Part shown: positions 29,984-32,277 of the stretch, piece by piece
Numbering within the stretch: position 1 is the first letter of the stretch
Layout of the letters: each line of letters begins with the position of its first letter
From: a virus
Taxonomy: Duplodnaviria; Caudoviricetes
Strand: one strand, 5' to 3'
IMG/VR virus record: IMGVR_UViG_3300025849_003344
DNA: 64,000 bases
Translations under genes and position numbers: made by a program
The notes under the pieces: generated by a model
Databases searched by the model: none
What the model saw: only the letters and a program-made list of their open reading frames with translations
Told to the model about the DNA's origin: nothing

Positions 29984-30598
29984 TTAGTGTCCGTTCGTTA
30001 CGGTGTTATAAAACAACTTGCCAGAGAAATCTGTAGTTTTAGCTATGCTAGGACCAGAGTAACTGAATACCGCCGTACCTGGGCCAGTATCGTTACCGAA
30101 AATAGCATATAGTTTATAGTATTGGCCGTTTATTAAATTAAATGTGCCACTTCTTTCTGTCGCGCCATGTCTACCGCCATTTTGTACAACAGCATTATCC
30201 AGGTCTTCATTTGCAGGAGGTCCAGCGTCAGGTCCAAGGAAAAGATAACTGGCGTCATCTGAGTTAATAAAGAAAGTAAATTCGCCTGTAGCTGGTGCTA
30301 AGAAATAACCAGTCTCAGTATAGGTTGTACTCTCACTAACTGTTCCAGGCCTACTAACGCTAGTAGTAGCACCTTCAGCCGAGATAGTTGCCCCGCCGTT
30401 AATAATAACTGAGTCGTACGTAGGTTGGTCATCATAAGGTCCGGAACCTAGTTGTCCGAAGTAATTATTATAAGTTCTCTCATATACACCAGATGCAAGG
30501 GTAAGATCACTAACGTCATCAGCGACAACGTCGCCCATCTGTATATTCCTGATCATGGAAACTCCAAGACCAGATCCCATACCCATACTAATAGTCAT
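29984..30598 (-). CDS. Putative head fibre with PA14/GLEYA carbohydrate-binding domain
   Basis: GYFLAPATGEFTFFINSDDASYLFLG, NGGRHG, GQYYKL; N-terminal ISMGMGSGLGV peptide. Confidence 0.75.
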   Translation of the reverse strand: MTISMGMGSGLGVSMIRNIQMGDVVADDVSDLTLASGVYERTYNNYFGQLGSGPYDDQPTYDSVIINGGATISAEGATTSVSRPGTVSESTTYTETGYFLAPATGEFTFFINSDDASYLFLGPDAGPPANEDLDNAVVQNGGRHGATERSGTFNLINGQYYKLYAIFGNDTGPGTAVFSYSGPSIAKTTDFSGKLFYNTVTNGH

Positions 30599-30599
30599 T

Positions 30600-30863
30600 T
30601 TACCAAAGACCTACTAGGTTAGTTGCAGTAGTTCCGGTCGCATATACTCTAGACGCTCTAACAGGAATAACAGTACCGGCAACCACGCCACTCAACGTTA
30701 CGGTATCACCTAAAACCGTATCGATTTTGACATTACCTGCTCCACCAATATACAACGATCTAGTAGCATTAGTTAAATCAGTTGTGTCATTAGGTGTGAT
30801 AGCAGCCGCATTTTCTGCAGGTGACTCAAGATGCGGCGAATAGCTTTTATATTTGTCTGACAT
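30600..30863 (-). CDS. Head spike base protein (RcGTA Rcc01079-like)
   Basis: LESPA...ITPNDTTDL...RSLYIGGAG...GTVIPVRASRVYATGTTA matches the Rcc01079 pattern. Confidence 0.8.
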   Translation of the reverse strand: MSDKYKSYSPHLESPAENAAAITPNDTTDLTNATRSLYIGGAGNVKIDTVLGDTVTLSGVVAGTVIPVRASRVYATGTTATNLVGLW

Positions 30864-30888
30864 TATTTTTCCACTTTACCTTTAAATG

Positions 30889-30896
30889 TATTTATA
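30889..30896 (-). promoter_or_regulatory. T4-type late promoter for the spike base/fibre genes
   Basis: TATAAATA. Confidence 0.75.
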
Positions 30897-30897
30897 A

Positions 30898-30923
30898 TAA
30901 AAAAAGGGCCGCCGAAGCGACCC
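30898..30923 (-). terminator. Rho-independent terminator after gene 23
   Basis: GGGTCGC-TTCG-GCGGCCC followed by a T run. Confidence 0.88.
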
Positions 30924-30948
30924 TCTAGTTAGATTTTTCCTATTTGGC

Positions 30949-32277
30949 TTAAGCCATAATGTTGTCGACTCGGAAAATTCTGTAGTATTGGTTTGATTTC
31001 GCAGCAGCAAGACCATTTGCAGGTGTTGCACCGACGAATGGGTTTGAAGCCATGCCGTAGCGAGTTTTGAAACCAATTTTTGGCTGGAAGTTATCTTCAC
31101 CAACCGCACGAACCATTGTGAGCGGTACGTATGGGCAATAGAAGAGACCAGCGTCATATGGGTTTGTACCCTTATAACCAACAGTCACATAGTCAACAGT
31201 TGCATATGGGTCAATATAGACTCTTGTGCGACCGTTAAGAACACCAGCAAATGTGTTGCCTGTGTCATCTACGTTCAAGTTAGTGGACAGCGCTGGAGTG
31301 TAATCCAACATACCGGAAGCAGCCAAAGCAGAAGCTACGTCTGAAGAACAGATAATGAAGTTACCTTTTCCTCTACGTGTTTCTTTTGCAATTACGTTTG
31401 CTTCACGTTCGATTTGAACGATCAGGCCTTTGAATTTCTCAACAGACCAACGGCCATCTGCATCAGATGACATATCAAAGATACCGTTAACAGCTGTGGA
31501 AGCTTGAAGGGCACCAGTTTTGGCTTGCGAGTTGATTGTACGAATTACTTCGCGGTTGATTTCAGCCAAGATTTCAGTTGAAAGAATGTTGGCCAACTCT
31601 GTTTCAGCGTCAAGACCGTGAATCGCTTTCAAGTCTTGAGCAAGCTCTAGCGAGTACTCAGCTTTTAGCGCACGTGATTTCGCTGTCACAGTTGCTTTTT
31701 CAATGGTGAAACCCATTTGTTCGAAAGCATTGTTTGCGGAATCACCAAGAGTTTCAGCAGAGTCTGTTGTCATACCAATGTTAGCAAGATTGGTCAGACG
31801 ATCTGAGTCAATTGTGTTTGGTGAGTTAGCGTTAGTAACATCCAAACCTGAACCGTCTGCACCAGCAGCCGCAGCAGTTTTTGTACCTGCGTGACGCGCG
31901 TTAGCTTCGTTGAACAGAGCTTCTGTTGAACCAGTTGCACCAGAGTCGTAACGTGATTTCATCGCAAAGATGAGACCAGTTGGGCCGGACATAGGCTGAA
32001 CGCCAGCAACGTCATATGCCATTAGGTTTGGCATGGAACGACGAACCAATGAGATCAATACTGGATCCCATGTTCCGATTGAACCGGTGTTTGCACCAGC
32101 AGGAGCAGCTTCGGACAAGAAGCCATTGTGCTGTGCACGCTCTTCGCGCAGAGCAATTTCTTGGTTTTCTAGAATAGCAGCTGTAACTGCTTTTTTGTGG
32201 TGATCATTAATAGTGCCAGCAGACTCTTCATTAAGTACTGGCGCCCACTTTTCGATCAACTTATCGTAAGATTGCAT
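30949..32277 (-). CDS. 23: Major capsid protein gp23
   Basis: KWAPVL, GVQPMSGPTGLIFAM, RALKAEYSLELAQDLKAIHGLDAE, FYCPYVPL. Confidence 0.99.
   Translation of the reverse strand: MQSYDKLIEKWAPVLNEESAGTINDHHKKAVTAAILENQEIALREERAQHNGFLSEAAPAGANTGSIGTWDPVLISLVRRSMPNLMAYDVAGVQPMSGPTGLIFAMKSRYDSGATGSTEALFNEANARHAGTKTAAAAGADGSGLDVTNANSPNTIDSDRLTNLANIGMTTDSAETLGDSANNAFEQMGFTIEKATVTAKSRALKAEYSLELAQDLKAIHGLDAETELANILSTEILAEINREVIRTINSQAKTGALQASTAVNGIFDMSSDADGRWSVEKFKGLIVQIEREANVIAKETRRGKGNFIICSSDVASALAASGMLDYTPALSTNLNVDDTGNTFAGVLNGRTRVYIDPYATVDYVTVGYKGTNPYDAGLFYCPYVPLTMVRAVGEDNFQPKIGFKTRYGMASNPFVGATPANGLAAAKSNQYYRIFRVDNIMA

What the first reader, a model, noticed from the sequence alone, without database searches (positions are those of the whole stretch)
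29984..30896. RcGTA-type head-spike module (base plus lectin fibre) on a T4-like capsid
Seen: immediately after the gene 23 terminator, a late promoter drives an 87-aa protein matching the RcGTA spike base Rcc01079, then a 204-aa protein starting MTISMGMGSGLGV with a PA14 domain. Established: in the Rhodobacter capsulatus GTA, Rcc01079 pentamers sit on capsid vertices and hold the Rcc01080 fibre through its N-terminal hydrophobic/Gly peptide (MIALGLGLGL); the spikes bind capsule polysaccharide. Inference: a siphovirus/GTA decoration system has been transplanted onto a myovirus head with a swapped PA14 tip, giving head-first adsorption to host capsule.
Basis: partly seen in the sequence, partly recalled or inferred. 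Interest (0 to 1): 0.8.

Follow-up and report, generated by a model that had tools for sequence, protein, structure and literature searches.

The report
GTA-type head spike on T4-like phage
A marine T4-like phage has picked up, right behind its major capsid gene, the two-gene "head spike" known from the Rhodobacter gene transfer agent, here tipped with a calcium-type sugar-binding (PA14) domain, so its capsid corners probably carry sticky fibres that T4-type heads are not known to have.

Summary
On the minus strand, gp23 (30949-32277) ends in a terminator (30926-30903). A TATAAATA late promoter (30896-30889) follows, then an 87-aa gene (30863-30600), a 204-aa gene (30598-29984) and gp3, each 1-2 nt apart.

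- **Base.** The 87-aa protein is a member of NCBIfam NF048002, "spike base protein, RCAP_Rcc01079 family" (113 bits, cut-off 28). It matches PDB 6TB9 by sequence (E 2.6e-12) and by fold (TM 0.81).
- **Fibre.** The 204-aa protein has a disordered N-peptide, MTISMGMGSGLGV, of the alternating hydrophobic/small type that plugs Rcc01080 into the base pentamer. The rest is a Flo5/Epa-like PA14 domain with the Ca2+ motif (D114-D115, N169) intact.
- **Recent insertion.** None of the 80 closest gp23 relatives has the pair. Four of them keep the same terminator and promoter, driving gp3 directly. Three diverged relatives do carry the pair, under purifying selection.
- **Second T4-type case.** Flavobacterium phage immuto, also with a gp23-type head, has a base-plus-fibre pair at the same spot.

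Location on the virion and glycan binding remain inference. I rate it a new variant of a known kind, of moderate interest. This scan has noted GTA-type spike pairs before on other DNA, but not on T4-type heads.

The parts
30949..32277 (-). gp23-type major capsid protein (442 aa), the presumed docking platform; no gp24 paralogue in the window
   Evidence: PF07068 E 2.5e-147; T4 gp23 E 2e-86 and gp24 E 1e-17 in the PDB; no second copy found by tblastn
30903..30926 (-). intrinsic terminator after gp23
   Evidence: 10-bp stem with 6 GC pairs plus a T-run; the same sequence is present in relatives that lack the cassette
30889..30896 (-). T4-type late promoter TATAAATA. In relatives it is the gp3 promoter; here it drives base, fibre and gp3
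30600..30863 (-). head-spike base protein (87 aa), RCAP_Rcc01079 family
   Evidence: NF048002 113 bits against a cut-off of 28; 6tb9 E 2.6e-12; AF2 pLDDT 92 and Foldseek TM 0.81 to 6tb9; pN/pS 0.19
30536..30598 (-). fibre residues 1-21: flexible N-terminal anchor peptide MTISMGMGSGLGV...
   Evidence: pLDDT below 50; alternating hydrophobic/small pattern as in Rcc01080 residues 2-10 and in the genes that follow base homologues elsewhere
29984..30535 (-). fibre residues 22-204 plus stop: PA14/GLEYA lectin domain with DcisD (D114-D115) and N169
   Evidence: Pfam; Foldseek hits to Flo5/Epa1/Flo1, E about 2e-9; invariant D114, D115 and N169; motif definition from PMC6218569
29445..29981 (-). gp3-like tail-tube-fold protein, the normal neighbour of gp23, now third gene of the operon
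   Evidence: phrog_45 E 1.6e-26; follows gp23 directly in relatives

Best explanation
The two genes are a mobile head-spike cassette. Five copies of the 87-aa jellyroll base would sit on each of the 11 non-portal capsid vertices, here pentamers of the gp23-type capsid protein. One 204-aa fibre would plug into each base pentamer through its N-terminal peptide of alternating hydrophobic and small residues. Its C-terminal PA14 domain would then hang out on a short flexible link and bind a surface glycan through a Ca2+ ion, as Flo5/Epa lectins do. This would give weak, multivalent, reversible attachment of the head before the tail engages. The cassette was inserted between the gp3 late promoter and the gp3 start codon. 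It is therefore made late, together with structural proteins, and is translationally coupled. Shown: homology, fold, motif conservation, insertion, purifying selection. Inferred: position on the virion, 5:1 stoichiometry, glycan binding, role in adsorption.
For: - **Base.** NF048002 equivalog, E 5e-33. PDB 6tb9 Rcc01079, E 2.6e-12, with E13 aligned to the cation-binding Glu12. Foldseek gives significant hits only to the two solved capsid spike bases: 6tb9 (TM 0.81) and 8cjz, 'Carin1 bacteriophage mature capsid' (TM 0.72).
- **Anchor peptide.** Residues 1-21 are disordered. Relatives read MTISMGMGIGFGV and MTISMGMGLGFGT. The genes after base homologues in other phages start MGLGLGIGLGL, MIGLGLDLSL, MYIGLGISL and MIGLGLNIW. 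In IMG/VR, 28 of 75 downstream ORFs have at least 4 alternating I/L/M/V/F residues, against about 5% of all ORFs.
- **Lectin.** PA14/GLEYA. Flo5/Epa/Flo1 top the fold search. D114-D115 and N169 are invariant and align with Flo5's DD and Asn. These are the features required for Ca2+-dependent binding (PMC6218569).
- **Late structural expression.** The terminator and TATAAATA are shared with relatives, where they precede gp3. Intergenic gaps are 1-2 nt.
- **Selection.** pN/pS is 0.19 for the base and 0.12-0.14 for the fibre, against 0.14 for gp23. The layout is the same in relatives whose base is 99, 83 and 79% identical.
- **Symmetry argument (inference).** A pentameric base matches only the capsid five-fold vertices of a T4-type virion.
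- **Second gp23-type case.** Phage immuto has base plus fibre directly after gp23.
Against: - No virion data exist for this or any gp23-type phage.
- All solved examples are on capsids whose capsid protein is not detectably gp23-like.
- The capsid-binding N-arm is the most variable part of the family, and the Glu is not conserved family-wide.
- The window's peptide has Ser at one of the alternating positions (S9).
- The fibre has only about 20 residues between plug and lectin, so it is a knob rather than a fibre.
- The host and its glycans are unknown.
- Public annotation calls the family 'tail fiber protein' (phrog_12296), and in many phages the pair lies at the end of the tail genes.
Confidence: 0.6

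Rival explanations
1. The spike is on the capsid as described, but its job is not host adsorption. The PA14 lectin would tether virions to marine gels, particles, algal surfaces or non-host cells. That would raise encounter rates or persistence, as proposed for T4 Hoc on mucus.
For: After the yeast adhesins, the nearest bacterial structural matches are the PA14 domain of the Marinomonas ice-binding adhesin, described as mediating a bacterium-diatom interaction (abstract of 10.1101/2020.11.18.389155). Very similar PA14 bodies (70-75% identical) occur with a different N-terminal anchor in other marine phage contigs. The cassette is dispensable: close relatives lack it.
Against: In the only tested system, the spikes bind the recipient cell's own capsule (PMC7296036 and PMC5026251). 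Presence/absence variation between close relatives fits host-range fine-tuning equally well.
Confidence: 0.2
2. The base does not dock on gp23-type pentamers. The pair attaches elsewhere on the virion (neck or tail), or acts as a free lectin complex released at lysis.
For: gp23 carries an insertion domain and differs greatly from the RcGTA capsid protein. The base N-arm of the T4-type clade (MSDKYKSYSPHLESPAEN) differs from that of its nearest HK97-type relatives. Many cassettes lie among tail genes, and the family is annotated 'tail fiber'.
Against: Both solved homologues are capsid-vertex proteins. A pentamer has no symmetry-matched site on a six-fold tail or a twelve-fold portal. In two independent gp23-type phages the pair lies directly after the capsid gene. 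The 'tail fiber' label appears to rest only on similarity and position (PMC5026251).
Confidence: 0.15
3. The cassette is a passenger in a hypervariable slot and has no function in this phage.
For: In relatives the gp23-gp3 gap holds many unrelated inserts. Cassette presence is patchy on the gp23 tree.
Against: The ORFs are intact at 79-99% identity, with synonymous sites near saturation and pN/pS of 0.12-0.19. The Ca2+ motif and the plug peptide are invariant. The genes are translationally coupled upstream of the essential gp3.
Confidence: 0.04

Closest known systems
RcGTA head spike: GhsA/Rcc01079 base plus GhsB/Rcc01080 fibre (PDB 6TB9, 6TBA, 6TSU, 6TUI; Bardy et al. 2020, PMC7296036; Westbye et al. 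2016)
   Same: The base is a curated family member with the same fold. The two genes are coupled. The fibre begins with an alternating hydrophobic/small peptide, and a glycan-binding role is expected.
   Different: The capsid is gp23 (T4) type, not the small HK97-type GTA head. The fibre body is a 180-residue PA14 lectin with no similarity to the RcapMu protein reported as an Rcc01080 homologue. The fibre is 204 aa rather than 325. One plug position is Ser. The cassette sits inside a lytic phage's late operon, not beside a capsule locus.
Flavobacterium phage vB_FspM_immuto (MW353176), genes 204-206
   Same: It has a gp23-type capsid gene (32% identical, E 5e-35). A base homologue (41% identical) follows directly, then a gene starting MYIGLGISL.
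   Different: The fibre is 546 aa with no PA14 domain. The pair is annotated 'tail fiber protein' and 'hypothetical' and, as far as I could find, has never been discussed as a head spike. Whether it shares one origin with the window's cassette is unresolved.
PDB 8CJZ chain h, 'Spike Base Protein' of the Carin1 bacteriophage mature capsid
   Same: It is the second solved capsid-vertex base of this fold (E 7e-5 by sequence, TM 0.72).
   Different: It is only 25% identical. Its capsid protein is not hit by gp23. No paper on it was found in the library.
PA14/Flo5-like lectins (ScFlo5, Epa1, Cea1; MpIBP PA14)
   Same: The beta-sandwich fold, the DcisD motif and the CBL2 Asn are shared.
   Different: P0002 has no cysteines, so it lacks the disulfide-linked neck of the fungal adhesins. 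It is viral and anchored by a 20-residue peptide. Its ligand is unknown.
T4 Hoc and Soc capsid decoration
   Same: All are non-essential proteins added to a gp23 lattice; Hoc is proposed to mediate adherence.
   Different: Hoc and Soc bind hexamers or their interfaces, not vertices, and are unrelated in sequence and fold (statement from general knowledge).

Membership tests
Spike base protein, RCAP_Rcc01079 family (NCBIfam NF048002) | Whole-protein score above the curated cut-off | tested here: met
   113.2 bits against a cut-off of 28, E 5.2e-33, covering model positions 1-85 of 85
Spike base protein, RCAP_Rcc01079 family (NCBIfam NF048002) | Six-stranded jellyroll fold of the solved base | tested here: met
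   AF2 pLDDT 92; Foldseek 6tb9 TM 0.81, E 4.6e-7, and 8cjz_h TM 0.72; no other hit below E 0.1
Spike base protein, RCAP_Rcc01079 family (NCBIfam NF048002) | Forms pentamers on capsid five-fold vertices via its N-terminal arm and an acidic residue (Glu12) that shares a cation with the capsid protein | tested here: inconclusive
   E13 aligns with Glu12, but this column varies across the family (T/E/D/S). Docking on gp23 cannot be modelled with these tools.
RcGTA-type two-gene head-spike cassette | A fibre gene directly downstream, translationally coupled, whose product starts with about five alternating hydrophobic residues | tested here: met
   There is a 1-nt gap between the genes. The pattern is I3, M5, M7, S9, L11, V13; relatives have I or L at position 9. 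The pattern is enriched about 8-fold in downstream ORFs.
RcGTA-type two-gene head-spike cassette | Physical binding of the fibre peptide to the base pentamer | not testable with these tools
   A pentamer could not be submitted. The four-copy job gave no verdict.
GhsB/Rcc01080 fibre family | Homology of the fibre body | tested here: not met
   No significant similarity to RcapMu58, reported as an Rcc01080 homologue (E 0.12 over 21 residues; PMC8601537). The body is PA14 instead.
PA14/Flo5-like Ca2+-dependent lectins | PA14/GLEYA domain above the Pfam gathering scores | tested here: met
   GLEYA 47.8 bits (cut-off 26.2); PA14 34.3 bits (cut-off 24)
PA14/Flo5-like Ca2+-dependent lectins | DcisD motif in CBL1 and Asn in CBL2 | tested here: met
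   D114-D115 and N169 align with Flo5's DD and Asn and are invariant in 10 homologues. Definition from PMC6218569. The cis-peptide geometry itself was not tested.
PA14/Flo5-like Ca2+-dependent lectins | Disulfide-stabilised neck subdomain of the fungal adhesins | tested here: not met
   P0002 has no cysteine
PA14/Flo5-like Ca2+-dependent lectins | Ca2+-dependent glycan binding | not testable with these tools
   Needs a glycan array with and without EDTA
T4-type head module | gp20 portal, gp21 protease, gp22 scaffold and gp23 capsid protein in order | tested here: met
   gp23 by Pfam. The syntenic relative L092 has Portal_T4, Peptidase_S77, T4_CASP and Gp23 in order.

The most novel reading that the evidence does not exclude
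The Rcc01079-type base is a general adaptor for HK97-fold capsid vertices that can also dock on gp23-type pentons. A roughly 13-residue alternating hydrophobic/small peptide would then be enough to turn any binding domain into a head fibre. Here a PA14 lectin that elsewhere carries a different 75-residue anchor has been re-tagged with that peptide. This would give T4-type marine phages a swappable, vertex-mounted second adsorption device.
Probability: 0.5. Interest if true: 0.65.

Novelty: new variant of a known kind. Interest (0 to 1): 0.55.

Why it matters
T4-type capsids are among the best-studied virus shells, and no vertex-mounted fibre is known on them. If the spike really sits on gp23 pentamers, three things follow.

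- The base is a capsid-lineage-independent adaptor.
- Marine T4-like phages have a second, exchangeable receptor-binding device on the head.
- The short plug peptide is a natural tag for hanging cargo on capsid vertices, which is of interest for phage display.

The finding also flags a very large family (13,645 cluster representatives) that phage databases still label "tail fiber protein".

Tried and rejected
- **Complex prediction.** Four copies plus fibre residues 1-60 gave "no answer" (score 0.04). This is evidence neither way.
- **Base phylogeny.** The tree has 87 columns and is unresolved. It cannot say whether the window clade and immuto share one acquisition.
- **IMG/VR loci found with the base.** None of the 80 has gp23 or the PA14 fibre within 6 kb, so they gave no further T4-type cases.
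- **Whole genome.** It is not held, so gp24 could be excluded only within the window.
- **Literature.** Nothing was found on 8CJZ or Carin1, or on vertex fibres of T4-like phages. The Jorvik and HFTV1 papers mention head spikes only in passing.
- **Metatranscriptome contigs.** In run X17, two 151-nt contigs with one mismatch each cover 30363-30513 and 30556-30706, the second bridging the base-fibre junction. DNA carry-over cannot be excluded, and contigs cannot show strand or level. The other three runs cover only gp23 or gp3. Parts without cover say nothing.
- **Alternative anchor.** Pfam and PHROG searches of the alternative 75-residue anchor and its neighbours gave nothing informative.

Full report
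**Anatomy.** All genes of the region lie on the minus strand. The gp23-type major capsid protein occupies 30949-32277 (442 aa; PF07068, E 2.5e-147; T4 gp23 E 2e-86 in the PDB). It is followed by a strong intrinsic terminator at 30926-30903 and an exact TATAAATA at 30896-30889. Fourteen of the window's 15 copies of this octamer are on the coding strand.

Then come an 87-aa ORF (30863-30600, P0001) and, one nucleotide later, a 204-aa ORF (30598-29984, P0002). Two nucleotides after that comes a gp3-like tail-tube-fold protein (29981-29445; phrog_45), followed by UvsY and UvsW.

**The base.** P0001 scores 113 bits against NCBIfam NF048002, "spike base protein, RCAP_Rcc01079 family" (cut-off 28, E 5e-33). 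It matches the RcGTA head-spike base in PDB 6TB9 at E 2.6e-12, and the "Spike Base Protein" of 8CJZ at E 7e-5. An AlphaFold2 model (pLDDT 92) has only two significant structural neighbours in the PDB. These are the same two capsid proteins: 6tb9 (TM 0.81) and 8cjz, "Carin1 bacteriophage mature capsid" (TM 0.72).

Pfam has no model for the family. PHROGs calls it "tail fiber protein" (phrog_12296), a label that goes back to similarity-based annotation of RcapNL (PMC5026251). A profile search finds 13,645 cluster representatives at E no higher than 1e-3, so the family is very large.

**The fibre.** In RcGTA, residues 2-10 of Rcc01080 (IALGLGLGL) form a five-point star that puts five (iso)leucines into hydrophobic pockets of the five base subunits. 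The rest of the fibre is flexible and binds capsule (PMC7296036). P0002 begins MTISMGMGSGLGV, which gives I3, M5, M7, S9, L11 and V13 alternating with small residues. This stretch is modelled as disordered (pLDDT below 50 for residues 1-21). In three relatives position 9 is Ile or Leu.

The same signature opens the gene that directly follows base homologues in unrelated phages:
- RcapNL: MGLGLGIGLGL
- P8625: MIGLGLDLSL
- ZHS: MIGLGLNIW
- immuto: MYIGLGISL
- elemoF: MFISIANAIGV

In 75 IMG/VR loci, 28 downstream ORFs have a run of at least four alternating I/L/M/V/F residues. About 5% of all ORFs in the same loci do, and that figure includes the true positives. These downstream proteins range from 48 to 1041 aa. 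The plug peptide is therefore conserved while the tip is freely exchanged.

Residues 22-204 of P0002 form a PA14/GLEYA beta-sandwich. Its best structural matches are the Ca2+-dependent yeast lectins Flo5, Epa1 and Flo1 (E about 2e-9), followed by the Marinomonas adhesin PA14 domain. The two features that define Ca2+-dependent binding in this class are the DcisD motif and an Asn in calcium-binding loop 2 (PMC6218569). Both are present (D114-D115 and N169), align with those of Flo5 and are invariant in ten homologues. The body has no similarity to the RcapMu protein reported as an Rcc01080 homologue, and it has no cysteines.

**Only the anchor was swapped.** The closest relatives of the PA14 body outside the 204-aa forms are abundant 257-aa proteins that are 70-75% identical over residues 22-204. 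They carry a different, roughly 75-residue N-terminal region and lie in other large-phage contexts without a base gene. This points to a short plug peptide grafted onto an existing phage lectin.

**A recent, dispensable insertion.** None of the 80 closest gp23 relatives in IMG/VR (71-92% amino-acid identity) has the base or the fibre. In most, gp3 starts about 80-120 nt after gp23, as it does in the nearest isolate, Kyanoviridae phage C48C1. Four relatives at 89-92% gp23 identity keep the same terminator and TATAAATA, but the next start codon there is that of gp3. The cassette therefore sits between the native gp3 late promoter and gp3.

Metagenomic relatives whose base is 99, 83 and 79% identical carry the same base-PA14-gp3 layout. 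On a well-resolved gp23 tree the cassette-bearing genomes fall inside one 11-member clade (support 99/98) but are not monophyletic, so at least two gain or loss events are needed. In other relatives the gp23-gp3 gap holds unrelated inserts; it is a variable slot.

The next-closest base proteins (69-71% identical) belong to HK97-type head modules (PF05065 capsid). This fits transfer across capsid lineages, but the base tree is too short to name a donor.

Both genes are under purifying selection. pN/pS is 0.19 for the base and 0.12-0.14 for the fibre, with synonymous sites near saturation; gp23 gives 0.14. The phage occurs in marine metagenomes from more than ten studies.

**A second T4-type case.** Flavobacterium phage vB_FspM_immuto has a gp23-type capsid protein (32% identical to the window's). 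Directly after it comes a base homologue (41% identical, annotated "tail fiber protein"), then a 546-aa protein that starts with the plug motif. The arrangement is therefore not unique to this window. I found no paper that recognises it.

**Mechanism and its limits.** The most likely reading is a vertex-mounted lectin knob. Base pentamers would sit on gp23 pentons; no gp24 paralogue is in the window. Each would hold one fibre by its N-peptide, and the PA14 domain would bind a surface glycan through Ca2+. A pentamer has no symmetry-matched site elsewhere on a T4-type virion, which is an inference.

What is not shown:
- docking on gp23, since both solved examples are on capsids that gp23 does not hit by sequence;
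- the stoichiometry;
- the ligand;
- the host.

The capsid-binding N-arm is the most variable part of the family. It is specific to the T4-type clade here, which could reflect adaptation to a new capsid or equally a different docking site. Weak RNA-library coverage exists but proves nothing.

**Verdict.** It is unproven for virion location and head-first capsule adsorption, and the proposed origin ("siphovirus/GTA") is too narrow. This is a new variant of a known kind: a known spike system on a new capsid lineage, with a new, re-anchored lectin tip.

Noticed in passing
L117, L129, L131, L132, L137, L145, L146, L154, L166, L171, L177 (gap between gp23 and gp3): In relatives, the gp23-gp3 junction is a hypervariable slot. 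It holds unrelated inserts of 0.4-3 kb: signal-peptide or lipoprotein-like ORFs, an HNH-like ORF, and in L171 two paralogous Gly-rich proteins of 282 and 488 aa that both start MAENSN.YxP.LKNF.
   Followed up: partly
P0128, P0149, P0157 and relatives; L109:8001-8774: Abundant 257-273-aa marine phage proteins share 54-75% identity with the PA14 body of the fibre but carry a different N-terminal region of about 75 residues. No base gene is nearby. What that region anchors to is unknown; Pfam and PHROG find nothing.
   Followed up: partly
L002:4989-6912 (Flavobacterium phage vB_FspM_immuto_3-5A, MW353176): A cultured phage with a gp23-type capsid gene has a base homologue and a 546-aa plug-motif protein directly after gp23. 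They are annotated 'tail fiber protein' and 'hypothetical'. It is a ready experimental test case.
   Followed up: partly
L016-L019, L050-L054, L063-L069 and others (ORF after the base): Many cassettes have a short ORF of only 48-82 aa after the base that carries the plug-like N-peptide (MLIGLNLKLP..., MGLANWIAISI...). This suggests split anchors, in which the plug is a separate micro-protein.
   Followed up: no
P0161 (331 aa), P0162 (234 aa), P0179 (185 aa): Some family representatives contain two base-like stretches in one protein, so they look like tandem or fused spike-base domains.
   Followed up: no
L005:3001-3222 (Ralstonia phage RSJ5, NC_029007, 43159-43380): A clear base homologue (50% identical) lies in an unannotated stretch at the end of this T7-like genome. 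No plug-motif gene follows it.
   Followed up: no
L092:5599-5898 and L101:504-1242: In the relatives whose base is 83% and 79% identical, extra opposite-strand ORFs sit between gp23 and the base, and the base has its own TATAAATA. The insertion therefore has more than one configuration.
   Followed up: no
window 30556-30706: A 151-nt contig from a marine metatranscriptome (run X17, one mismatch) bridges the base-fibre junction. This is compatible with co-transcription but is not proof.
   Followed up: partly
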